Origin: Parcubacteria group bacterium GW2011_GWA1_56_13
GTDB lineage: Bacteria; Patescibacteriota; Minisyncoccia; Phycocordibacterales; Phycocordibacteraceae
Reading direction: 5' to 3'
Length of the DNA: 64,000 bases
Assembly: GCA_001004905.1 (NCBI GenBank)
Contig: LCRY01000001.1
Span: 10,461 to 74,460, forward strand
Shown here in pieces: positions 14,013-50,106 of the stretch; within the stretch, counting starts at the first letter, position 1; each line of letters begins with the position of its first letter. The notes under the pieces were generated by a model. That model saw nothing but the letters and a program-made list of their open reading frames with translations, was not told the DNA's origin and did no database searches. The position numbers and the translations under genes are program-made.

Positions 14013-15842
14013 CTATGCTTTTTTGTCCTGCTGGGCATACCGCTCTTTCTCCTGCTTGATGGCGAGGAGCTGGGACGGGTCGGACGTGATTATCTGGTCC
14101 TCGGTATAGCTAGCCACTACCTTGATGGCGACGTGTTTCAGGCCTGCGAAAAAGAGCCCTTCGCCCACGCCGGCCTCGAGCAGGAGATATTTTTCCTCGT
14201 CGGTGAGGTTGAATGTCTCCTGCAGAACGTTGATGGTCGTCGGCGACTGCTTGAGGAGGAGTTGGAGCGACGAGTTCGTGAGAATGGGCCGTCCGTAGGG
14301 GCTCTTGAGGAAGTCCTCCACGTCCTGCGTAATGGTGCAGACGCCCAGGTAGTATTTGCGCCCGCGCTTGGCCACCGAGTAGAGGAAGGAAGCGGTGTCT
14401 TCGCTCTTCATCATCCACCACGCCTCGTCAATGATGAGAAGACGCTTCTTCAGTTCGTGGCGCACGGCGTTCCAGATGTAGTGCGTGATGATGTACATCG
14501 CGACCGGCTTCAATTCGTCCTCCATGTCGCGCACCGAGAAGACGGCGAATTGCTGTTTGATGTCTATATTGGTCGGCTGGTTGAGAAATCCCGCCCAGGT
14601 GCCGCGCGTATATTTCGAGAGCCGTTCGACCAAGGACTCGCTCCCTTCCATGCCGGAGAGTACCTGCTCGAAGTCGGAGAGGAGCGGCGGTTCGGCGCCG
14701 GTAAAGTCGGCGTCGCCGGTGATGTCTTTGAGCGCGTACGTCTCGCTGATGGCGCGGTCGACGATAGCGTCCTCTTCGGGCGAGAGGCCGGAAAGCATGA
14801 TACGGAAGAGCCCGACGAGCGCGATGATGTTTGACCGCAGGATGTCTTTCGGGTCCTCGTCTTCTTTGACCGCCGGAAGATCGAACGGGTTTATGTGGTG
14901 CTCGGAGGAGAGCGAAATGTGGAACGATCGGCCGCCGGTCGCCTCTGCGAGCTGGTCATATTCGCGTTCCGGATCGATGACGATGACGTCGGTGCCGAAC
15001 ATGAGGGAGCGAAGCACTTCAAGCTTCGTCGCGTAGCTCTTCCCGGACCCGGACTTTGCGAAAATGACCGAGTTGTAATTCTCAAGCGAAAAGCGGTCGA
15101 AGAGAATAAGCGAAGAATTGTGCCGGTTGATGCCGTAGAGGATGCCACGGTCGCTCGTGAGGTCGAACGAGACAAAGGGGAAGAGCGAAGAGAGCGGCGA
15201 GGAATTCAGCTTCGAGTTAACAAGGAGCTCGTCGGTTCCGAGCGGAAGGCATGAACGGAACCCCTGCTCCTGCTGGAACAGCGCCGGTTTCGTGTAAACG
15301 AGTTTTGCATCGAGGATACCTCGGATATTTCCTTCGGTTTTGTCGATCTCCTCCTTTGAGTCGCCGTAGAGCGCGAGGTAGAGCCCCACTTCAAAGAGTT
15401 TTTCCTGTGCTTGCTGGAGATTGTTGCGCAGCGTCTCCAGATCCTGATAGGCGGTATCAAGCAGGGGGTCGCGCACGAGTCCCTTCGCCTCACGCTCGTT
15501 GATCTGACTCTCTACTTCCGCAACTTTTTTCTGGAAATCACGAAGTGCCTGCGCCGTCTCGATCGGATGGATGAATACGGAAACGTCGAGCACCTTATCA
15601 AGGTTAATGACCGGCGAGAACCATCCGTCGGTGAGGAACCGCGGGTAGGAAATGGTGTAAAAAGCGCGGACGAACTTCTCCCCGAGCTCGATCTCGCGCG
15701 GGCCGATGGAAAGAGCCGTCGGAGCGATCGTATCGACGAGTTCCAAGGAACCCTGTTTGTAGATATCTTTCGGCAAGACCGGCACGACCATCTGGTCTTG
15801 CGAGTGTTCCTTCTTCCGGTTCAAAAAATCGAGGAGTGACAT
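14013..15842 (-). CDS. VirB4/TrbE/CagE-family type IV secretion ATPase (C-terminal ATPase portion)
   Basis: Walker A FAKSGSGKSY; DEAW-type Walker B LLIIDEAWWMM; 609 aa. Confidence 0.8.
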   Translation of the reverse strand: MSLLDFLNRKKEHSQDQMVVPVLPKDIYKQGSLELVDTIAPTALSIGPREIELGEKFVRAFYTISYPRFLTDGWFSPVINLDKVLDVSVFIHPIETAQALRDFQKKVAEVESQINEREAKGLVRDPLLDTAYQDLETLRNNLQQAQEKLFEVGLYLALYGDSKEEIDKTEGNIRGILDAKLVYTKPALFQQEQGFRSCLPLGTDELLVNSKLNSSPLSSLFPFVSFDLTSDRGILYGINRHNSSLILFDRFSLENYNSVIFAKSGSGKSYATKLEVLRSLMFGTDVIVIDPEREYDQLAEATGGRSFHISLSSEHHINPFDLPAVKEDEDPKDILRSNIIALVGLFRIMLSGLSPEEDAIVDRAISETYALKDITGDADFTGAEPPLLSDFEQVLSGMEGSESLVERLSKYTRGTWAGFLNQPTNIDIKQQFAVFSVRDMEDELKPVAMYIITHYIWNAVRHELKKRLLIIDEAWWMMKSEDTASFLYSVAKRGRKYYLGVCTITQDVEDFLKSPYGRPILTNSSLQLLLKQSPTTINVLQETFNLTDEEKYLLLEAGVGEGLFFAGLKHVAIKVVASYTEDQIITSDPSQLLAIKQEKERYAQQDKKA

Positions 15843-15844
15843 AA

Positions 15845-16480
15845 TCAGTTGTCGAGGCGAATGGGGTTCTCAAGCTCTCCGGGATTGAAGGAACGGTACA
15901 AGAGTTCGATGATCTCCTCGGTTCCGAGCGGAACCGCTCGTACGCCGGTGCCGACGAGCCCTTCCGCGACGAGCGAGAGCCGCTGCTCAAGTTGCGCGCG
16001 GTCCTGCTCGAACGAGGCCTCTTGGGCGGCGCTCTTTACCGATGCGCTTTCGCGCTTCAGAAAGCTGACGGTCGCTGCGGCGGACACGTGCGGCGTGTAC
16101 GGCACGATGATGTAGAACGATTTTGTCATGATATTCGCTTGGTCCGTAAACGAGCGTACGAACTCGACGTACTCGTGCAACTGGATGCGCATAAGCTCGG
16201 TCTTTTGCTCCGGCGCTTTCTCTGCAAGTAGGGCGAGATACGGGCGCAGGTCCATACGGCGCGAATTGATGACGATCTGGATGGAAAAATCGAGCGTATT
16301 GAGAAAATTCTGGAAGCCAAGGACGATGGCATGCTGTTCATCGGCGGATTTAAGGCCGAAGTTGATGGAAGAACAGATAAGTACGCCGCGATAGCCGCCG
16401 TCTTTGAGGACGATAGTTCCGTTCCGTATCTCTTTGACCGGAACGAACTGCTGCGTTGCGCCTGCCGATTTAGTCGCCAT
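15845..16480 (-). CDS. VirB4 N-terminal-domain-like protein (possibly the split N-terminal part of the adjacent VirB4)
   Basis: 211 aa. The stop (15845-15847) lies 2 nt from the ATG (15840-15842) of the VirB4 ATPase ORF in a different frame. Combined 820 aa matches a full-length VirB4. Confidence 0.5.
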   Translation of the reverse strand: MATKSAGATQQFVPVKEIRNGTIVLKDGGYRGVLICSSINFGLKSADEQHAIVLGFQNFLNTLDFSIQIVINSRRMDLRPYLALLAEKAPEQKTELMRIQLHEYVEFVRSFTDQANIMTKSFYIIVPYTPHVSAAATVSFLKRESASVKSAAQEASFEQDRAQLEQRLSLVAEGLVGTGVRAVPLGTEEIIELLYRSFNPGELENPIRLDN

Positions 16481-16481
16481 A

Positions 16482-16928
16482 TCAAGTATCGCGTTCAGCG
16501 GGATTCACATCTCCCTTTTTTACGTCAAGTGACCACGCGAGTTCGGAGAGTTTCCCTCGGGTGAGCTTCGGCGTGCCACGCCTGGGTAGCTGCGCCGCCT
16601 CGGCAGCCGCCGCTGCAGCGGTCGCGGCGGTATATTCCTTGACCCCCGTCTCTTTATGTTTCCAGAGGAAGAATTTCGCGCCGGTGTAATAATTGAAACC
16701 GGCCTCCAGGATCTCGATAAATGCCTTGCCGTTCACCTTATAGAATGCGAGTGCCGCGCCGAATCCTGCCACGAGGGCCGAGAGCACGATCGCGAAGATC
16801 ATCGGCAGATAAACGAAGAACACGACGCAAAGCCCCGCAGCGCCGGCGATATAGATGAATTGTTTGAGGGTCAGAGGCCCGATGATCTTGTCCTCTACCT
16901 CGATGAACTGCGGCACTTGGTACTCCAT
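16482..16928 (-). CDS. PrgI-family (VirB3-like) small membrane protein
   Basis: N-terminus MEYQVPQFIEVEDKIIGPLTLKQFIYIAGAAG matches the PrgI-family start (VP..I..EDKI.GPLT..Q.IY); two TM segments; first gene of the operon. Confidence 0.55.
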   Translation of the reverse strand: MEYQVPQFIEVEDKIIGPLTLKQFIYIAGAAGLCVVFFVYLPMIFAIVLSALVAGFGAALAFYKVNGKAFIEILEAGFNYYTGAKFFLWKHKETGVKEYTAATAAAAAAEAAQLPRRGTPKLTRGKLSELAWSLDVKKGDVNPAERDT

Positions 16929-18331: not shown

Positions 18332-18574
18332 ATGGCAAGACAATGTGAAATTACCGGGAAAAGCACGCAAATCGGCGGGCGGTACTCTAACCGCACCCGC
18401 GCGACGCAGTTCAACCCGACCGGCAAAGGGCGCCGCAAGGCAAATCTCCAGCGCCGCCGCATCTACGTCGCCGAGCTCGGCAAGACCGTCATCGTCGATG
18501 TTTCCGTAAAAGGGCTTAAAACTATCAAGAAAAACGGTGCATTCGCCGCGCTCAAGAAGGCAGGAGTGATTTAA
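18332..18574 (+). CDS. rpmB: 50S ribosomal protein L28
   Basis: 80 aa MARQCEITGKSTQIGGRYSNRTRATQFNPTGKGRRKANLQRRRIYVAELGKTVIVDVSVKGLKTIKKNGAFAALKKAGVI; classic L28; lies within the longer track ORF 18086-18574. Confidence 0.9.
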   Translation: MARQCEITGKSTQIGGRYSNRTRATQFNPTGKGRRKANLQRRRIYVAELGKTVIVDVSVKGLKTIKKNGAFAALKKAGVI

Positions 18575-18581
18575 TAACGGC

Positions 18582-18615
18582 AAAAAAGAGCGCCGGACCA
18601 TTCGTTCGGCGCTCT
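18582..18615 (-). terminator. Terminator of cassette gene A (minus strand)
   Basis: Hairpin agagcgccg-gaccattcgtt-cggcgctct preceded on the plus strand by AAAAAA (a T-run on the minus strand). Confidence 0.5.
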
Positions 18616-18629
18616 GCTCACGGGCTCTG

Positions 18630-19343
18630 TCATTGCTTGCGTGCATCAATGATCGATGCGATCCGATCAATCATCCGTTCGGTAAGATGGTCTTTGTGGA
18701 AAATCGCGCACCCCTCCTCGAGATTTCGTAACCGGCAGATACTCCAGTATTCGTCCAAGGTGAACGGGATACCGAGGTACCGAGACCATGGGCAGACTGA
18801 ATAGTGAGTCCAGTCGACAGCCGTGCGACTTCCGAACCCTTGCGTATTCCACGCATGAAGCATCGGTCGGACAATCGATCCGTACGCGAGACCCTCGACG
18901 TACAGAATCGGAGGCGGAATAGCTGCCCATACTCGATCGTTTTCCATTGCCAGATGTGCGAGTAGCCATGCGTTTTCGAAGCAATGTCTGGGCCGAGGTT
19001 CGAAGGGAACGGTGGTCCATTCGTACGGCACGTAGTCCACTCCATATTCGAGCAATAGCCTCAGCCCAGCAGGGTGGACGCTGTTCAAGATCTTGAGATA
19101 GCCGGTGAATTGTTCTCCTCGCGCTCTTCTACCCGCTACCTGCTCGATAAAAGCGCGCAAGCTTGTATCGTGCCCGAGCGGGAATTTCCGAGCGAATCTC
19201 CGCGAAAGAAGATTACGGAAGTTCTTCCCTTGCGCGCTCATCAGCCATTTCCAATCGGTACGTTGGTCTATGTTTATTTCTACGGGTCGGCGCATGGCCT
19301 CCTCCCTATCAAGTTGTCCGCTGCGGACTCTACCAGATTGCAT
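18630..19343 (-). CDS. Cassette gene A: hypothetical protein with a transglutaminase-like/papain-like Cys-His-Asp motif arrangement
   Basis: HCFENAWLLAHLAMENDRVWAAIPPPILYVEG (compare TGase core G.C..FA.L...L..GIPAR.V.G), then MLHAWNT (HAW) and AVDWT (D); 237 aa. Confidence 0.45.
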   Translation of the reverse strand: MQSGRVRSGQLDREEAMRRPVEINIDQRTDWKWLMSAQGKNFRNLLSRRFARKFPLGHDTSLRAFIEQVAGRRARGEQFTGYLKILNSVHPAGLRLLLEYGVDYVPYEWTTVPFEPRPRHCFENAWLLAHLAMENDRVWAAIPPPILYVEGLAYGSIVRPMLHAWNTQGFGSRTAVDWTHYSVCPWSRYLGIPFTLDEYWSICRLRNLEEGCAIFHKDHLTERMIDRIASIIDARKQ

Positions 19344-19361
19344 ACAGTAATTCTAGTCGGC

Positions 19362-19409
19362 AAGAAGCACGGCGCCTTCGCCGCCCTCAAAAAAGCCGGT
19401 CGCATTTAA
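19362..19409 (+). repeat. Degenerate direct copy no. 2 of the rpmB 3' end
   Basis: aagaagcacggcgccttcgccgccctcaaaaaagccggtcgcatttaa encodes KKHGAFAALKKAGRI*; compare the native rpmB end at 18527-18574 encoding KKNGAFAALKKAGVI*. Confidence 0.85.
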
Positions 19410-19424
19410 ATTCACAAAACAAAA

Positions 19425-19449
19425 AGGACGGCCCGCCGTCCTTTTTTTG
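19425..19449. terminator. Bidirectional intrinsic terminator after rpmB-3' copy 2
   Basis: aggacggc-ccg-gccgtcct with an A-run upstream and TTTTTTT downstream. Confidence 0.6.
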
Positions 19450-19458
19450 GTCACGCCC

Positions 19459-20028
19459 TCACACCACCCGGCGCTCGGAAAATACTTTACCGAGAAGGCT
19501 CCCGTCCGTCTGGATGAGAGATTCAGTAATCGTCCACCCTGCCGCACGCATTTCAGCGTGGTACATTTGGCGTACCTCGTGTCGAGTCAAGATGATTCGA
19601 CCGTCCGGGCCAATGACGCGCGCCCAATATGGACCCTCACCCCAATCAAGCCACTGGTACGCGAAATTGATTGCGTTCAGTAGCGACTGGGACGTGTAGT
19701 TTTCGATGAAAGTCGGATTGAGCGTTGGACCGCAGACGACGAACGATGCGACTTTTGTCGGGAGGCCATACCCGCCTCTTGCCGCGTCCCAAACGCGCCG
19801 AGTCGTCCATGGCGAGACCACTATCTTCCCTTCGAAACTGTAGATCCCTGCCCACTGGGCTCTGCCGCCCCACATGAGTAAATGGGCGACTAGTTCCATA
19901 AGCAGGCGATTCTGAACCTGAATGATCTTGTCCTTCTGCGGGAGGCAGACTCTTAGGACGAATGACCGTCCGTTAAGCGCCTTCTTGGGGTAGGAACCGT
20001 AGCTTTCAACGTCGTTCGGTCGGTCCAT
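19459..20028 (-). CDS. Cassette gene B: diverged paralog of cassette gene A lacking the Cys/His/Asp positions
   Basis: LVAHLLMWGGRAQWAGIYSFEG aligns with LLAHLAMENDRVWAAI..YVEG of gene A; the catalytic C/H/D equivalents are replaced; 189 aa. Confidence 0.45.
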   Translation of the reverse strand: MDRPNDVESYGSYPKKALNGRSFVLRVCLPQKDKIIQVQNRLLMELVAHLLMWGGRAQWAGIYSFEGKIVVSPWTTRRVWDAARGGYGLPTKVASFVVCGPTLNPTFIENYTSQSLLNAINFAYQWLDWGEGPYWARVIGPDGRIILTRHEVRQMYHAEMRAAGWTITESLIQTDGSLLGKVFSERRVV

Positions 20029-20084
20029 CGGATTCTCCTTTAAGAGCAGTTCAGCTCGGACTATACTATGCGAAAGGTATTTTT

Positions 20085-20131
20085 AAAAGCACGGCGTCTT
20101 CGCCACTCTCAAACGCGCCGGTCGGATTTAA
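20085..20131 (+). repeat. Degenerate direct copy no. 3 of the rpmB 3' end
   Basis: aaaagcacggcgtcttcgccactctcaaacgcgccggtcggatttaa encodes KHGVFATLKRAGRI*. Confidence 0.8.
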
Positions 20132-20180: not shown

Positions 20181-20441
20181 ATGGAGGATTTGCCCATGGC
20201 AAAACCATTTGCTGCCGGTGATCAAGTCGAGTGGCGTTATTTCGGGGGAAAAGAATGGACTGGAGGAATAATTGGGTCGATTGACCATGAACTTGGGATC
20301 ATGAGTGTTAACCAGGGCCATTTTTATGGCATTGAAGCTTCCCGCGCCACTCACACAGTCCGCAGAATAAATGGCAGATGGTTGGCGTTCCGCGCAGGCC
20401 ATGATGACTATATCGACCGAATACGCCATGTCAAAACCTGA
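20181..20441 (+). CDS. Hypothetical small protein (weak DUF2945/Tudor-like resemblance)
   Basis: 86 aa; FAAGDQVEWRYFGGKEWTGGIIGSID motif; lies after the third rpmB-3' copy. Confidence 0.35.
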   Translation: MEDLPMAKPFAAGDQVEWRYFGGKEWTGGIIGSIDHELGIMSVNQGHFYGIEASRATHTVRRINGRWLAFRAGHDDYIDRIRHVKT

Positions 20442-20481
20442 ACCAACCCCCGCCAAAAAGGTTCCTCTTACATAGAGGGAC

Positions 20482-21180
20482 CTACTTTTTTGTAATCATT
20501 TGACCGTTTGAAGTGTACATACTCGCGGGAGTTGAAGAAGAAGAGATAACGAGGTCCGGCGGAGGAAAACCCGCATTAAGCACAGCAAGCCATGCGGCGG
20601 CGCGCGGCGGCAGGTCGTTTTGGATGAGGATGGAAGTCGAACCATAAGAAATGCGCAGCACGACCGCACCATCGGCCGTGTTCAGGGCGGAGGCGGTGTT
20701 TGGCGGCCAGAGCACATCGGCATATGCGCCGTCGCCAAGCGAAAAGCGCTGGCCGCGCTCGGCCGTGAAATGGCGTAGGCCCCGCTGCGCGCTTGCCGCC
20801 GCGGCAAGCGCGGCTTCCTGGCTTCGAGTTCCTTCCGCGCGCGGGCGCACGAGCGCCGAAACGCGATAGCGTTCCATAATGTGCGGCAATCCGCCGGACG
20901 AATCGGCGGAAACGGTCGTGAGCACGATGCTGTCAATGTTTCTGTGCCACATCGGCAGGGCCGAACCGAGTTCGCGTAATATTCCGGCGTCCTTCCCGGC
21001 GTTTATAAGCAGCGTTGTGCCGCTCGGGCTCCGCACCAACACCGCGTTATCCTTGTCTGTATCGAGCACGCGTACTTCGAGCACCGGCAACGCGAATGCG
21101 GTCCGATACACGAGGACATTTCCGGCGACGAAAGCGACAAGTACCACAACATAGAAACCCACAACTTCTACACGGGGCAT
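20482..21180 (-). CDS. ComEC C-terminal metallo-beta-lactamase-like domain protein, catalytically degenerate and encoded separately
   Basis: LEVRVLDTDKDNAVLVRSPSGTTLLINAG...IDSIVLTTVSADSSGG follows the ComEC MBL-domain pattern; the HxHxDH metal ligands are replaced; N-terminal TM. Confidence 0.55.
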   Translation of the reverse strand: MPRVEVVGFYVVVLVAFVAGNVLVYRTAFALPVLEVRVLDTDKDNAVLVRSPSGTTLLINAGKDAGILRELGSALPMWHRNIDSIVLTTVSADSSGGLPHIMERYRVSALVRPRAEGTRSQEAALAAAASAQRGLRHFTAERGQRFSLGDGAYADVLWPPNTASALNTADGAVVLRISYGSTSILIQNDLPPRAAAWLAVLNAGFPPPDLVISSSSTPASMYTSNGQMITKK

Positions 21181-23309: not shown

Positions 23310-23681
23310 ATGGAATATAGCTTCTGGCAGACCCGACAAGGGGGAACGCCAGTTCTAGATGACTTACAAGCTGTAGCCCAAGCCGATGCTAACTCAGGAA
23401 AATCTTACTGGCTCCAGCTGAGCAAGGTCGAGAAATATACCTATCAGCAATTAATAAGGAAACTTCTCAAGAAGCTCAAAGGGAAGAATCCCTACAAGCT
23501 GTTTGAACTAAGATTTGCCCTGCCCCGGAAGATAGCAAGGACCTTTTGCGTCATCAGTCGTGATTCGAAATTATGGTTGTTACATCTGGTTATTAAGAAG
23601 AAAGATGGAACTAAGCGTTCTGATATAAAGATTGCTGAAGAAAGGGCAAAAATCCTAGAACAGACAATCCATTATCTGTAA
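23310..23681 (+). CDS. HigB/Gp49-family (RelE/ParE superfamily) toxin-like protein
   Basis: LFELRFALPRKIARTFCVISRDSKLWLLHLVIKKKDGTKRSDIKIAEERAKIL matches the Gp49/HigB core (ElR...yRi.yf....ivLLhgf.KK); low-GC islet. Confidence 0.6.
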   Translation: MEYSFWQTRQGGTPVLDDLQAVAQADANSGKSYWLQLSKVEKYTYQQLIRKLLKKLKGKNPYKLFELRFALPRKIARTFCVISRDSKLWLLHLVIKKKDGTKRSDIKIAEERAKILEQTIHYL

Positions 23682-23691
23682 ATGAAACAAT

Positions 23692-24138
23692 ATGAAGATA
23701 CAACACGCAAAATCGATACTGCTTGAAAATGATATGATTCGAAAATCATTTGGGAAAAATGATCTTGATAGCATCAAGATGAATGTCGGTCTGCAGATTC
23801 TTGAGCTGAGGTTAATCAAGAACCTTACTCAAAAGCAGCTTGCCAAAAAAATCGGTACTAAGCAGCCGAGTGTTGCGCGTGTTGAAAGAGGAGCTATGGC
23901 CCCTAGTTTAACGTTCCTATATAAAATAGCGGCTGCGGTTGATACGGAATTAATTCCACCTAAATTCGCAGTTGTTGAAAGGAACGAACAACTATATCAA
24001 ACGAATAATTTTCCTTCCTACCATTTCAGCAATGTGCAGAGTCAAGGAAAGCTGCAAAAAAATGCTGAAATTTCACATGTGCAACTTCCAAGTACTCGGG
24101 AGATATTCTCGTTTGATCATCAATTAGTTACACGGTAA
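23692..24138 (+). CDS. XRE-family HTH protein, putative HigA-like antitoxin
   Basis: HTH LRLIKNLTQKQLAKKIGTKQPSVARVERG; immediately downstream of the toxin-like gene; low GC. Confidence 0.6.
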   Translation: MKIQHAKSILLENDMIRKSFGKNDLDSIKMNVGLQILELRLIKNLTQKQLAKKIGTKQPSVARVERGAMAPSLTFLYKIAAAVDTELIPPKFAVVERNEQLYQTNNFPSYHFSNVQSQGKLQKNAEISHVQLPSTREIFSFDHQLVTR

Positions 24139-24149
24139 TTCTCAAAAAC

Positions 24150-24623
24150 ATGGAAAAAGAAAACATACTTAGATACATGGGCGGCATAGTTTGTGAATCT
24201 TCTGCAGTCGACCAACAGACCCAAAGTCTTTCTGCCTTCAAGATAATTGACCAAATTAATGTGAACATTAAATCAACCGACCCGACGGTAACATCAAAAT
24301 CACTACAAAAAATAACAATCCCTCTTTCGCTACAAGTTATTTCTCTATGGAAAAGAAATAAACAATCGGATCAAGGGAGGGACATCGAAGGAAAAATCGT
24401 TGTGGAGATTATTGATCCCCGAGGTGAAGTCCTCGCAAAACATCCTATTAATGTCCTACTGCCATTAAACAAAATTCGTTCCAGAACAATTCTTAATATA
24501 CAGGGAATGCCTGTATCAACTACTGGTGAGTATTGTGTGCAGATGAAAGAGGTTAACACAAACGGGAAAGAATCATCACCTCTGGCCAAGCTTTGTTTCG
24601 ATTTAATTCTAAACAAGGAGTGA
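24150..24623 (+). CDS. Hypothetical protein in the low-GC islet
   Basis: 157 aa; AT-rich codon usage like its neighbours; no recognisable motif. Confidence 0.4.
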   Translation: MEKENILRYMGGIVCESSAVDQQTQSLSAFKIIDQINVNIKSTDPTVTSKSLQKITIPLSLQVISLWKRNKQSDQGRDIEGKIVVEIIDPRGEVLAKHPINVLLPLNKIRSRTILNIQGMPVSTTGEYCVQMKEVNTNGKESSPLAKLCFDLILNKE

Positions 24624-49206: not shown

Positions 49207-50106
49207 TTAGTTACGGGATTTCCCGTGGTATTTGCGGTGAATTTCTCTCAAATGACTATCGGTGATGTGCGTATAAATTTGGGTCGTATTGATGGAGGCG
49301 TGGCCGAGGAGCTGTTGGACGGAGCGGATGTCGGCACCATTGTTGAGTAAGTCGGTAGCGAAGACGTGACGGAGCACGTGTGGGGTTACTCTTTTTGTAA
49401 TACCGGCTTTGGCAGCGCATTTTTTGATAATTCGCTCGACGGAGCGGGGCGTGAGCCGCGCCGGAATGATCTTTCCGACGGGGACATTCACAAAAAGCGC
49501 CTCCGCCATGTCCTTGCGTGCCCTGAGGTACGCGGAAACGGCATTCTTGGCGACGGGGGAGAGAAAGACGACCCTGACTTTGTCTCCCTTGCCGCGCACC
49601 GAAAGGGAATCCTGAGTGATATCTATGTCCGAATCAAGCGCGCAGAGCTCGGAAACGCGCAGTCCGGTGGAGAAAAGGAGCTCGAGTATGGCGGCATCGC
49701 GCAGACCCTTCTCCCCGGAACCACGGGCGGCCTGCATAAGTCGTCCGAGCTCTGTGGGAGTGATGAGGTCAAGTTCACGTTCGGGAAGCTTGGCGAGTTC
49801 GATGCGTTCGGGAGAGATGCATTCGATGCCCTGCTTACGCAGGAATTTCAAGAATGCGCGGAGAGCAATCATATAGTAATTTTGGGTACGCCGCTTCATT
49901 GAATCGGCATTTGTCCCCTTCTGACGATTGAGCCACAGGCGGAAGTCGCGAATATTTTTTTCGCTGATGTCACCTACCTTTCGTATCTCCATCCGGGAGA
50001 AGTAACGGGTAAGGTAGTGATCATAATTTTCGACCGTTTTCACCGCGCGTCCGCGCTCTATCTCTATGTATTCCAGAAATTGTCGTTTTGCGGCCTCTGC
50101 TTCCAT
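49207..50106 (-). CDS. Tyrosine site-specific recombinase XerC/XerD family
   Basis: RVSELCALD; HVLRHVFATDLL; LGHASINTTQIYTHI catalytic Tyr motif; 299 aa. Confidence 0.85.
   Translation of the reverse strand: MEAEAAKRQFLEYIEIERGRAVKTVENYDHYLTRYFSRMEIRKVGDISEKNIRDFRLWLNRQKGTNADSMKRRTQNYYMIALRAFLKFLRKQGIECISPERIELAKLPERELDLITPTELGRLMQAARGSGEKGLRDAAILELLFSTGLRVSELCALDSDIDITQDSLSVRGKGDKVRVVFLSPVAKNAVSAYLRARKDMAEALFVNVPVGKIIPARLTPRSVERIIKKCAAKAGITKRVTPHVLRHVFATDLLNNGADIRSVQQLLGHASINTTQIYTHITDSHLREIHRKYHGKSRN

What the first reader, a model, noticed from the sequence alone, without database searches (positions are those of the whole stretch)
18527..20131. Tandem cassette array bounded by three degenerate direct copies of the rpmB 3' end
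Seen directly: the last ~47 nt of rpmB (18527-18574) encode KKNGAFAALKKAGVI plus a stop. That segment recurs twice downstream in the same orientation. The copy at 19362-19409 encodes KKHGAFAALKKAGRI plus stop. The copy at 20085-20131 encodes KHGVFATLKRAGRI plus stop. The three copies are only about 70% identical at the DNA level, yet each keeps the reading frame, the peptide and the stop codon. Each interval between copies holds one minus-strand gene with its own intrinsic terminator (18582-18615 and 19425-19449). Established knowledge: integrative elements that insert into the 3' end of a conserved gene, classically a tRNA gene, carry a surrogate 3' end and leave the displaced original as a direct repeat. 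Successive insertions produce stacked, degenerate copies. Inference: two very small cassettes have inserted serially at the rpmB 3' end (an unusual target), or an ancient tandem duplication has diverged. The units are far smaller than normal islands and carry no integrase. The only tyrosine recombinase in the window (49207-50106) is 30 kb away. This may be a cassette-exchange system acting in trans, or remnants left after loss of the integrase.
Basis: partly seen in the sequence, partly recalled or inferred. Interest (0 to 1): 0.85.

Follow-up and report, generated by a model that had tools for sequence, protein, structure and literature searches.

The report
Stacked gene cassettes behind rpmB
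Two small foreign genes were inserted one after the other into the tail of the ribosomal protein L28 gene of a Parcubacteria (CPR) bacterium, each insertion leaving the previous gene tail behind as a fossil. The same integrase-free process recurs at other essential genes in related bacteria, where the cargo is mostly toxin-antitoxin pairs.

Summary
The last ~47 nt of rpmB (18527-18574) recur at 19362-19409 and 20084-20131, in frame and each with a stop codon. They match at 36, 39 and 31 of 48 positions; chance gives at most 27-28. Between the copies lie two unrelated minus-strand genes, each with its own promoter and terminator.

Comparative data support serial insertion:
- Many relatives have an empty site, others carry different inserts, and six further lineages carry displaced rpmB ends.
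- One of these is a second three-copy array.
- The same architecture occurs at rpsI, rpsG, fusA, an M50 peptidase gene and mscL.
- The cargo is usually a toxin-antitoxin pair.
- No insert I checked encodes a recombinase.

Differences between copies are almost all synonymous, and every displaced copy keeps a stop. Each copy was therefore once a working gene end.

The closest published match is "insertion with long target duplication", described for restriction-modification systems, whose mechanism is unresolved. I favour homology-guided integration of DNA from related lineages that carries its own gene tail. Decayed integrase islands or a recombinase acting in trans are less likely. I class it as a new variant of a known kind, of moderately high interest.

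The parts
18332..18574 (+). rpmB (ribosomal protein L28, 80 aa), the target gene. Its last 16 codons are copy 1.
   Evidence: Pfam PF00830, E 1e-12; 79-97% identical to L28 of 80 Parcubacteria genomes.
18527..18574 (+). Copy 1: the working 3' end of rpmB (KKNGAFAALKKAGVI*). In the model it arrived with cassette 1.
   Evidence: The relatives nearest in the rpmB body (L033, L020) match copy 1 better (81-83%) than copy 2 (67-71%).
18587..18615 (-). Terminator hairpin of cassette-1 gene (12-bp stem; T-run on the minus strand only).
   Evidence: strand folding: -24 kcal/mol, z -3.5 on the + strand; UCUUUUUUG follows the stem on the minus strand. A similar hairpin follows rpmB in L100, ahead of a gene-1 homologue.
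18630..19295 (-). Cassette-1 gene, 221 aa. It belongs to a small Parcubacteria-only family with invariant Cys105, His147 and Asp161, and is probably a transglutaminase/papain-like enzyme.
19296..19358 (-). Ribosome-binding site and promoter/5' region of the cassette-1 gene. This is the right edge of cassette 1.
   Evidence: GGAGG lies upstream of the ATG. The region is conserved with gene-1 homologue loci L099 and L101 up to ~19355, after which those loci diverge and carry no rpmB copy.
19362..19409 (+). Copy 2: a displaced, untranslated former rpmB end (KKHGAFAALKKAGRI*).
   Evidence: 36/48 identical to copy 1, with 8 synonymous and 2 non-synonymous codon changes. 41/45 identical to the working rpmB end of L065 and 40/45 to L036/L053. 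nhmmer E 2.5e-10.
19421..19446 (.). Bidirectional terminator hairpin of the cassette-2 gene.
   Evidence: Terminator scan; fold -15.6 to -17.3 kcal/mol with U-runs on both strands.
19459..20028 (-). Cassette-2 gene, 189 aa, an orphan of unknown fold.
   Evidence: Only 2 other homologues among 5.8 billion proteins. AF2 failed (pLDDT 33). Unrelated to gene 1. A sigma-70-like promoter (TTTAAA, 16 nt, TATAGT) lies at 20087-20060.
20084..20131 (+). Copy 3: the oldest displaced rpmB end (KHGVFATLKRAGRI*). It marks where rpmB ended before both insertions.
   Evidence: 39/48 identical to copy 2 and 31/48 to copy 1; nhmmer E 1.3e-3. Its left edge overlaps the -35 box of the gene-2 promoter.
20181..20441 (+). 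86-aa ORF with its terminator at 20459-20483. It is a further lineage-specific insert between copy 3 and the convergent MBL-fold ORF, and has no flanking repeat.
   Evidence: No homologue in the 80 related loci. In empty-site relatives the rpmB stop lies 0-17 nt from the end of the MBL ORF. Terminator.
20482..21180 (-). Convergent MBL-fold ORF (232 aa), the conserved right-hand neighbour of the empty site.
   Evidence: Weak Lactamase_B_2 hit. It lies directly after rpmB in L030, L047, L048, L068, L074 and others.

Best explanation
The 3' end of rpmB is an insertion hot spot. Foreign DNA enters by recombination inside the last 14-21 codons of the gene, and the incoming DNA carries its own version of those codons plus the stop. 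L28 therefore stays intact, and the resident tail is pushed downstream as an untranslated relic.

Two rounds built the window's array:
- Copy 3 is the original end.
- The unit [copy 2 + terminator + 189-aa gene + promoter] came first.
- The unit [copy 1 + terminator + 221-aa Cys-His-Asp enzyme gene + promoter] came last.

The units encode no recombinase. I infer that the conserved gene tail itself acts as the homology arm. DNA from a related lineage, probably taken up by the competence machinery, would be integrated by the host's homologous recombination. This could be a Campbell-type insertion-duplication, or a double crossover that uses rpmB on the left and a displaced tail on the right.

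The outcome is what Kobayashi's group called 'insertion with long target duplication'. In relatives the same process mostly carries toxin-antitoxin pairs, which resist loss.

Shown: the repeats, the empty and variant sites, the recurrence at other genes, the coding-type divergence, and the absence of recombinases in the inserts checked.
Inferred: the order of events, RecA-type homology guidance, and DNA uptake.
For: 1. The repeats are real and lie in frame.

2. Empty sites exist. The rpmB stop lies 0-70 nt from the MBL ORF or the SOD gene in many of 80 relatives. About 29 loci carry inserts of 0.3-2.2 kb with very diverse content.

3. Displaced rpmB ends sit downstream of rpmB in L019, L029, L065, L079, L081 and L102-104. 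All are on the + strand, with nhmmer E values from 1e-15 to 6e-7. L103 reads rpmB | TA-1 | copy | TA-2 | copy.

4. The same architecture occurs at other genes:
- rpsI (L016: a 33-nt copy directly after the HicA stop)
- rpsG (L141 with three copies, L114, L122)
- fusA, an M50 peptidase gene and mscL
Six unrelated target sequences argue against one site-specific enzyme and for guidance by homology.

5. Copy-to-copy differences are nearly all synonymous. Examples are L079 (8 nt), L114 (7 nt) and L103 copies 1/2 (6 nt) with no amino-acid change; L016 with Ser AGT versus TCG; and window copies 1/2 with 8 synonymous and 2 non-synonymous codons. A random-substitution simulation gives P <= 0.001 for most pairs. 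Every displaced copy keeps a stop, often a different one. Window copy 2 is 41/45 identical to a working rpmB end elsewhere.

6. No integrase or transposase was found in the inserts checked at these sites. Pfam covered the larger ORFs at the rpmB site; the L143 and L074 inserts were judged from their translations only.

7. Junctions are tight. There are 0-4 nt between the toxin stop and the displaced copy in four different cassette types, which leaves no room for arm-type att sites.

8. L113 and L019 differ at 1 position in ~1190 nt upstream. They then differ at 38 positions in the last 169 nt of rpmB, almost all third codon positions. Their cassettes are only 77% identical. This pattern is what a homologous-recombination breakpoint inside rpmB would leave.

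9. ComEC lies 3 kb away. Published cases of long target duplication occur mostly in naturally competent species, and their repeats often span a stop codon (PMC2853133).
Against: - No donor, circular form or excision product was seen. All 25 contigs of the window's own species carry the identical array.
- The window's copies now share at most 8-nt runs of identity (copies 1/2), so RecA could not act on them today.
- The L113/L019 breakpoint could be an assembly chimera. L004 and L178, from one sample, are mosaic inside rpmB.
- Homologous recombination alone does not explain how the first junction between a cassette and a partial gene tail arose.
- TA cassettes at rpmB are about as diverged between genomes (73-77%) as their flanks (72-80%). 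That fits old vertical inheritance, yet the relics have not decayed. Either donors are unsampled or the relics are under selection.
- About 20 insert-bearing loci show no duplication.
- Detecting copies partly by peptide similarity biases the sample towards coding-like relics.
Confidence: 0.5

Rival explanations
1. The cassettes are decayed integrative elements. Under this reading they are the last remnants of IME/ICE-type islands that integrated with their own tyrosine integrases at the rpmB 3' end (tandem accretion). They then lost everything but the att repeats and an addictive or useful gene, like cis-mobilisable elements.
For: The architecture (surrogate gene end, displaced original, stacking) is exactly that of att-site accretion. 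The 3' ends of ribosomal-protein genes are classic integrase targets, and accretions with decayed elements are common in streptococci (PMC5357655). An element that carries a surrogate end also explains coding-type divergence of the copies.
Against: No integrase was found at the rpmB site in 81 genomes or in dozens of metagenome loci, and the largest insert is 2.2 kb. None was seen at the rpsG, rpsI, fusA, M50 or mscL sites either. Four different cassette types have 0-4 nt between the cargo stop codon and the repeat. Repeated, precise decay to that state is unlikely. The lengths of the displaced copies vary from 33 to about 100 nt.
Confidence: 0.15
2. A host recombinase acts in trans. Candidates are the Xer-like tyrosine recombinase at 49207-50106 or an unrecognised enzyme. 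It would move recombinase-less modules in and out of the gene tails, as Xer does for IMEX elements and Acinetobacter pdif modules.
For: A Xer-type recombinase is present. The cassettes are small, self-contained and often TA pairs, like pdif modules (my own knowledge). If cassettes cycle in and out, every copy is periodically the working gene end. That would explain why relics stay coding-competent even though cassettes look as old as their flanks.
Against: At least six targets with no sequence in common are used. The window's three copies have no significant fold (z -0.9 to +1.0); I did not test for a dif-like palindrome. All copies are direct, not alternating as in pdif modules. No excision variants appear among 25 contigs of the species. 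The left edges of the displaced copies vary.
Confidence: 0.12
3. This is a true long target-site duplication made in situ by an unknown insertion mechanism. It could involve staggered breaks tens of nucleotides apart plus fill-in, or tandem duplication followed by replacement of the inner segment. The two copies would then diverge where they sit.
For: L081's two copies are nearly identical (58/61), as in the published RM cases (44/46, 47/47). L125 duplicates ~60-100 nt of non-coding DNA, and L110 duplicates the tail of the convergent gene. Duplication is therefore not tied to the rpmB coding sequence. A pathway of tandem duplication followed by homologous substitution has been proposed for similar structures (PMC3457768).
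Against: In-situ divergence predicts mostly non-synonymous changes and lost stops in the untranslated copy. The observed changes are overwhelmingly synonymous and every stop is kept. Window copy 2 resembles working ends of other lineages more than its own copy 1.
Confidence: 0.13
4. An ancient tandem duplication of one unit (gene tail + terminator + gene) has since diverged.
For: The spacings are similar (835 and 722 nt) and both intervals have the same layout: terminator, minus-strand gene, promoter.
Against: The two proteins are unrelated (best BLASTP E 1.6). The cassette DNAs align at noise level while the 47-nt tails are 75-81% identical. Gene-1 homologues occur without gene 2 in other genomes.
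Confidence: 0.02

Closest known systems
Insertion with long target duplication (Nobusato et al. 2000; Furuta, Abe & Kobayashi 2010, PMC2853133)
   Same: Small self-contained gene units are inserted with direct duplication of more than 30 bp of target, of variable length. There are no transposase, integrase or terminal inverted repeats. The repeats often span the stop or start of the flanking gene, so that gene stays intact. Empty sites exist in relatives, and most cases are in naturally competent species. The cargo there (restriction-modification systems) is addictive, like the TA pairs here.
   Different: The cargo here is TA pairs and orphan genes that I take not to cut DNA, so the DNA breakage by the cargo proposed for RM systems would not be the cause. 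Targets are the tails of ribosomal-protein and other core genes. Insertions are stacked into arrays of up to three copies. The copies are often diverged alleles (65-85% identical, synonymous changes) rather than near-identical duplicates. The hosts are CPR/Parcubacteria.
Tandem accretion of integrative elements and cis-mobilisable elements at 3' ends of tRNA or ribosomal-protein genes (e.g. streptococcal IMEs at rpsI, rpmG, rplL; PMC5357655)
   Same: A surrogate gene end, the displaced original left as a direct repeat, serial stacking with the newest next to the gene, and ribosomal-protein gene tails as targets.
   Different: No integrase at any of the sites examined. Units are 0.5-0.8 kb instead of 5-40 kb. 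There is no space for recombinase arm sites. Many unrelated targets are used within one bacterial group.
Neisseria minimal mobile elements: cassette exchange by transformation and homologous recombination in conserved flanking genes (PMC3787668 contains the term; I did not read it, and the description is from my own knowledge)
   Same: Variable cassettes lie between conserved genes. There are no mobility genes. Movement is inferred to be by DNA uptake and host homologous recombination. The L113/L019 comparison shows exactly this kind of block exchange, if it is real.
   Different: Minimal mobile elements leave no duplicated gene tail and are not stacked.
Integron cassette arrays and Xer-dependent pdif modules
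   Same: Arrays of small modules, often TA pairs, that carry no recombinase and are separated by a recurring short sequence.
   Different: There is no intI, attI or common promoter. The recurring sequence has no attC-like fold. Cassettes have their own promoters and terminators and may lie on either strand. The repeats are direct copies of a coding gene tail and differ from site to site.

Membership tests
Insertion with long target duplication | Direct repeat of more than 30 bp of target sequence flanking the insert | tested here: met
   46-48 nt copies at 18527, 19362 and 20084; 33-100 nt in related loci.
Insertion with long target duplication | An empty site, with a single copy of the target, exists in related genomes | tested here: met
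   The rpmB stop is followed within 0-70 nt by the MBL ORF or the SOD gene in many of 80 relatives.
Insertion with long target duplication | No transposase, integrase or terminal inverted repeats in the insert | tested here: met
   No such Pfam, NCBIfam, PHROG or PADLOC hits for the window's cassette genes or for the larger ORFs of related inserts. The L143 and L074 inserts were judged from translations only. Inverted repeats were not searched for in the cassette region itself.
Insertion with long target duplication | Both copies match the pre-insertion target (near-identical repeats) | tested here: inconclusive
   Met in L081 (58/61). Not met in the window (65-81%) or in most other loci, where the differences are synonymous. 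No near-identical empty-site strain is available.
Integrative element with tyrosine integrase (IME/ICE/genomic island, CIME) | att-type direct repeats at the 3' end of a conserved gene, with a surrogate end | tested here: met
Integrative element with tyrosine integrase (IME/ICE/genomic island, CIME) | Integrase encoded within or beside the element, in this or related genomes | tested here: not met
   None in about 29 occupied rpmB sites or at the other gene ends examined. The only recombinase confirmed in the window is 30 kb away.
Integrative element with tyrosine integrase (IME/ICE/genomic island, CIME) | Excised circular form or precise excision | tested here: inconclusive
   No variant appears among 25 contigs of the species, but raw reads could not be searched.
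Integron cassette array | intI, attI and a common promoter adjacent to the array | tested here: not met
   The neighbours are rpmB, an M50 peptidase gene, the MBL ORF, SOD and ComEC.
Integron cassette array | attC sites: imperfect inverted repeats that fold as single strands | tested here: not met
   The copies fold no better than shuffles (z -0.9, +1.0, +0.3). The adjacent hairpins are ordinary terminators.
Xer-dependent modules (IMEX / pdif) | Flanking 28-bp dif-like sites with two recombinase-binding arms, in alternating orientation for pdif modules | tested here: not met
   All copies are in direct orientation and are coding-gene tails that differ between targets. Binding by the Xer-like protein is not testable here.
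Transposon / insertion sequence | Transposase, terminal inverted repeats and a short identical target duplication | tested here: not met
   No transposase. The repeats are 33-100 nt and diverged. Terminal inverted repeats were not searched for in this region.
Type II toxin-antitoxin module (as cargo) | Two small overlapping genes with recognisable toxin and antitoxin families | tested here: not met
   The window's cassettes are single genes with no TA signature. Related loci do carry TA pairs: ParE, HicA, weak RelE/StbE + ParD, and the 81-aa family linked to these by hhalign.

The most novel reading that the evidence does not exclude
Parcubacteria may harbour an active class of mobile cassettes that carry no recombinase of their own (mostly toxin-antitoxin pairs, also single genes). 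Their only 'mobility determinant' would be a portable copy of the last 10-30 codons of an essential host gene, used as a homology landing pad.

The cassettes would cycle in and out of ribosomal-protein, EF-G and other core gene tails. Each displaced tail would then periodically become the working one again. That would explain why relics stay coding-competent, with synonymous-only divergence and conserved stops, for as long as the cassettes themselves have been diverging.
Probability: 0.22. Interest if true: 0.8.

Novelty: new variant of a known kind. Interest (0 to 1): 0.62.

Why it matters
CPR/Patescibacteria have tiny genomes, few recognisable mobile elements and no genetic tools, and how they acquire genes is poorly known. 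This locus and its relatives show a recurrent route of gene gain that appears to need no integrase. It uses the tails of essential, highly conserved genes as landing sites and keeps a fossil record of successive events.

It also extends 'insertion with long target duplication' from restriction-modification systems to cargo that I take not to cut DNA. The mechanism of that process has been unresolved since 2000. The extension removes the proposed role of cargo-inflicted DNA breaks and points to the host's own recombination.

In practice, displaced gene tails are an easily searchable marker for recent gene acquisition in metagenome-assembled genomes. A [gene tail + cargo + gene tail] design suggests a way to deliver genes into these bacteria.

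Tried and rejected
- **Chance similarity:** rejected by the shuffle control and the profile search.
- **Tandem duplication of whole units:** rejected.
- **Structured recombination site (attC-like) in the copies:** no fold beyond shuffles.
- **Replication terminus/dif at this locus:** no GC-skew switch.
- **Function of the cassette genes:** the family libraries gave nothing. The gene-1 model is confident, but fold matches are weak. The gene-2 model failed, so no fold search was run.
- **Phage or plasmid carriage:** no relatives of gene 1 and only distant (about 30%) relatives of the TA toxin in IMG/VR.
- **tmRNA as the target in L141, L114 and L122:** the peptide 'ANKAFAHFAW*' looked like a tag, but ARAGORN and Rfam found nothing. 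It proved to be the S7 C-terminus.
- **Excision or empty-site variants within the window's own species:** none in 25 contigs. Contig breaks cluster inside the conserved rpmB body and look like assembly effects.
- **Which window copy is native:** rank correlations of similarity across relatives were too noisy for more than a hint.
- **S10 tail duplication in the S10-L3 insertion of L013:** none found.
- **Exact-match look-up of the L28 protein:** not on record.
- **PDB sequence search for the 81-aa toxin family:** no hit.
Full report
**Source and observation**

The window is from Parcubacteria group bacterium GW2011_GWB1_57_6 (GCA_001005015.1, contig LCSC01000001.1), a Kaiserbacteria-like CPR genome.

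rpmB lies at 18332-18574 on the + strand (Pfam Ribosomal_L28). Its last 48 nt (KKNGAFAALKKAGVI*) recur twice on the same strand:
- 19362-19409 (KKHGAFAALKKAGRI*)
- 20084-20131 (*KHGVFATLKRAGRI*)

The copies match at 36/48, 39/48 and 31/48 positions. Thirty shuffled 48-mers never exceeded 28/48 anywhere in the window. The family is the top direct repeat of the whole window. A DNA profile built from 80 genuine rpmB ends finds both extra copies, at E 2.5e-10 and 1.3e-3. Similarity ends exactly at the stop codon.

**What lies between the copies**

- Interval 1 holds a terminator hairpin (18587-18615) and a minus-strand gene of 221 aa (18630-19295) with its ribosome-binding site and upstream region.
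- Interval 2 holds a bidirectional terminator (19421-19446) and a minus-strand gene of 189 aa (19459-20028) with a sigma-70-like promoter.
- The two cassettes are unrelated at protein and DNA level. This rules out a diverged tandem duplication.

Neither gene hits Pfam, NCBIfam, PHROGs or PADLOC.

Gene 2 has only two other homologues and could not be modelled.

**The same site in relatives**

I fetched the rpmB locus from 80 species-level genomes.
- In many of them the rpmB stop is followed within 0-70 nt by the convergent MBL-fold ORF or by the SOD gene. These are empty sites.
- About 29 loci carry inserts of 0.3-2.2 kb. Their content is very diverse: kinase-like, HD-domain, shikimate-kinase-like, peptidase and many orphan genes.
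- None of the ORFs I checked is a recombinase.

Extra copies of the rpmB tail, always on the + strand and downstream, occur in L019, L029, L065, L079 and L081. They also occur in metagenome contigs L102-104, L108-109, L116, L118 and L121.

In these loci the DNA between rpmB and the displaced tail is a compact two-gene toxin-antitoxin-type cassette:
- ParE in L065 (Pfam).
- A weak RelE/StbE + ParD pair in L103.
- An 81-aa family linked to that toxin by profile comparison.

L103 is a second three-copy array: rpmB | TA-1 | copy | TA-2 | copy | MBL ORF. L029 has a weak third relic after a 422-aa minus-strand gene.

Gene-1 homologues sit in the same rpmB-ComEC interval in L009, L099 and L100, and in other variable spots in more distant genomes. 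In L099 and L101 the gene-1 upstream region is conserved up to the point corresponding to window ~19355, and no rpmB copy follows. Copy 2 therefore belongs with the cassette to its right. The repeating unit is [gene tail + terminator + gene + promoter].

**Not specific to rpmB**

- In Adlerbacteria (L016-18) a HicB/HicA pair sits directly after rpsI and is followed at once by a 33-nt copy of the rpsI tail.
- Relatives of the 81-aa toxin cassette sit after rpsG. The peptide 'EANKAFAHFAW*' is the S7 C-terminus (Pfam). There are up to three copies (L141, L114, L122).
- A stop-anchored peptide scan of 1.26 Mb of fetched loci found displaced tails of fusA (L143), an M50 peptidase gene (L074), mscL (L134) and two unidentified ORFs.
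- That scan gave 16 hits in the downstream direction against 3 in the control direction, and I interpret those 3 as counterparts of real arrays.
- Judged from their translations, the inserts in L143 and L074 hold TA-like pairs or an ABC transporter, and no recombinase.
- L125 duplicates ~60-100 nt of non-coding DNA, and L110 duplicates the tail of the convergent gene.

**How the copies differ**

Across 16 copy pairs the differences are overwhelmingly synonymous:

| Pair | Differences |
|---|---|
| L079 | 8 nt, no amino-acid change |
| L114 (rpsG) | 7 nt, no amino-acid change |
| L103 copies 1/2 | 6 nt, no amino-acid change |
| L016 (rpsI) | Ser AGT versus TCG |
| Window copies 1/2 | 8 synonymous and 2 non-synonymous codons |

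Both variant residues in window copy 2 occur in working L28 proteins of other genomes. Every displaced copy keeps a stop codon, often a different one from its partner. Random substitutions of equal number gave so few amino-acid changes with P <= 0.001 for most pairs.

Window copy 2 is 41/45 identical to the working rpmB end of L065, against 33/45 to the window's own working end. The copies are therefore alternative functional alleles of the gene tail. They are not one sequence decaying in place.

Decay does occur elsewhere, for example the degenerate relics in L105, L106 and L029. Caveat: finding copies partly by peptide similarity favours well-preserved ones.

**Mechanism**

A classical integrase island in decay is unlikely, for three reasons:
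- No integrase was found at any of these sites in the inserts I checked.
- Inserts are at most 2.6 kb.
- Four different cassette types have only 0-4 nt between the cargo stop codon and the displaced tail.

A single site-specific enzyme acting in trans is unlikely because at least six unrelated target sequences are used. In addition, the copies have no fold and are all direct. The Xer-like recombinase at 49207-50106 is best read as housekeeping.

A staggered-cut target duplication made in situ conflicts with the synonymous pattern, although L081 (58/61 identical) would fit it.

I favour homology-guided integration. Incoming DNA from a related lineage carries its own gene tail next to its cargo, and host recombination resolves inside the conserved tail. 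This would be either a Campbell-type insertion-duplication or a double crossover in which a displaced tail serves as the right-hand arm.

Supporting hints:
- L113 and L019 are identical over ~1190 nt upstream except at 1 position. They then differ at 38 of the last 169 nt of rpmB, almost all third codon positions. Their cassettes are only 77% identical.
- In the window, the rpmB body groups with copy 1. The relative closest in the flanking ComEC and DUF3467 genes (L053) matches copy 2 at 90%.

Both hints are weak. Short-read contigs can switch between co-occurring relatives inside conserved rpmB, as L004 and L178 show.

Three points remain unexplained:
- How the first cassette-to-partial-tail junction arises.
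- Why TA cassettes look as old as their flanks while their relics remain intact.
- Why about 20 occupied sites have no duplication.

**Comparison with what is known**

The closest published description is 'insertion with long target duplication' (PMC2853133). It has these features:
- Restriction-modification systems are inserted with variable direct target duplications longer than 30 bp.
- There are no other mobility genes.
- The repeats often span a stop or start codon, so the neighbouring gene survives.
- Most cases are in naturally competent bacteria.
- The mechanism is unresolved.

A pathway of tandem duplication followed by homologous substitution has also been proposed for similar structures (PMC3457768).

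The present case differs in five ways:
- The cargo is TA pairs and orphan genes that I take not to cut DNA.
- The targets are the tails of ribosomal-protein and other core genes.
- The insertions are stacked.
- The copies have allelic, synonymous divergence.
- The hosts are CPR bacteria.

It resembles tandem accretion of integrase elements at rpsI, rpmG and rplL in streptococci (PMC5357655), but fails the defining test of an integrase. It resembles Neisseria minimal mobile elements in lacking mobility genes, but those leave no duplication (my own knowledge).

**Verdict**

The enzyme and the pathway are inferred, not shown. I rate this a new variant of a known kind.

Noticed in passing
window 23310-24623: A low-GC patch (35-45% against ~55%) lies between the ComEC start and RNase H. 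It holds a Gp49/HigB-like toxin gene (123 aa), an HTH (Xre-type) antitoxin-like gene (148 aa) and a 157-aa orphan. This is a separate TA-type insertion with no flanking direct or inverted repeats.
   Followed up: partly
window 14013-16928: PrgI-like, TraC-like and VirB4/TraG P-loop ATPase genes (type IV secretion or conjugation-like) lie just upstream of the M50-rpmB pair and are syntenic in relatives. They could be relevant to DNA exchange in these bacteria.
   Followed up: no
window 18630-19295 and P0001-P0016: The gene-1 family is a Parcubacteria-only protein with invariant Cys, His and Asp and motifs CFxNAW, YVEG and PMLHAWN. Its model is confident (pLDDT 91) but has only weak transglutaminase/papain-like fold matches. 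It is found repeatedly in variable spots next to TA genes: after rpsI+HicAB in Adlerbacteria, and between S10 and L3 in L013.
   Followed up: partly
L013 3100-9380: A ~6-kb block of small genes (DUF4258/DUF2283, HigB-like, a gene-1 homologue and orphans) is inserted inside the otherwise universal S10-L3 junction of the ribosomal protein operon. No copy of the S10 tail was found.
   Followed up: partly
L004 and L178 (window 18340-18465): Contigs from one sample are mosaic within the 5' half of rpmB. L004 joins the window-type array to an upstream region 100% identical to L053/L036, with 19 mismatches in between. L178 is the reciprocal. This is either real recombinants or assembly switching between co-occurring relatives.
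   Followed up: partly
L122 ~60-130 and 750-830: Relic copies of the rpsG tail carry a ~30-nt hairpin-forming insert (CGTGCCCTTCCGAAGCCTTGGCGAAGGAGG) inside the former coding sequence. One copy has a 1-nt frameshift. The insert may be a small palindromic element.
   Followed up: no
L125 2650-2760 and 3310-3400: A TA cassette of the same family is flanked by a ~60-100 nt direct repeat of non-coding DNA containing a GTATAAT promoter-like box and a leader hairpin. Long duplication is therefore not restricted to coding tails.
   Followed up: partly
window 20181-20441: An 86-aa ORF with its own terminator lies between copy 3 and the MBL-fold ORF. It has no homologue in any of the 80 related loci and no flanking repeat, so it is a further lineage-specific insertion at the same hot spot.
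   Followed up: partly
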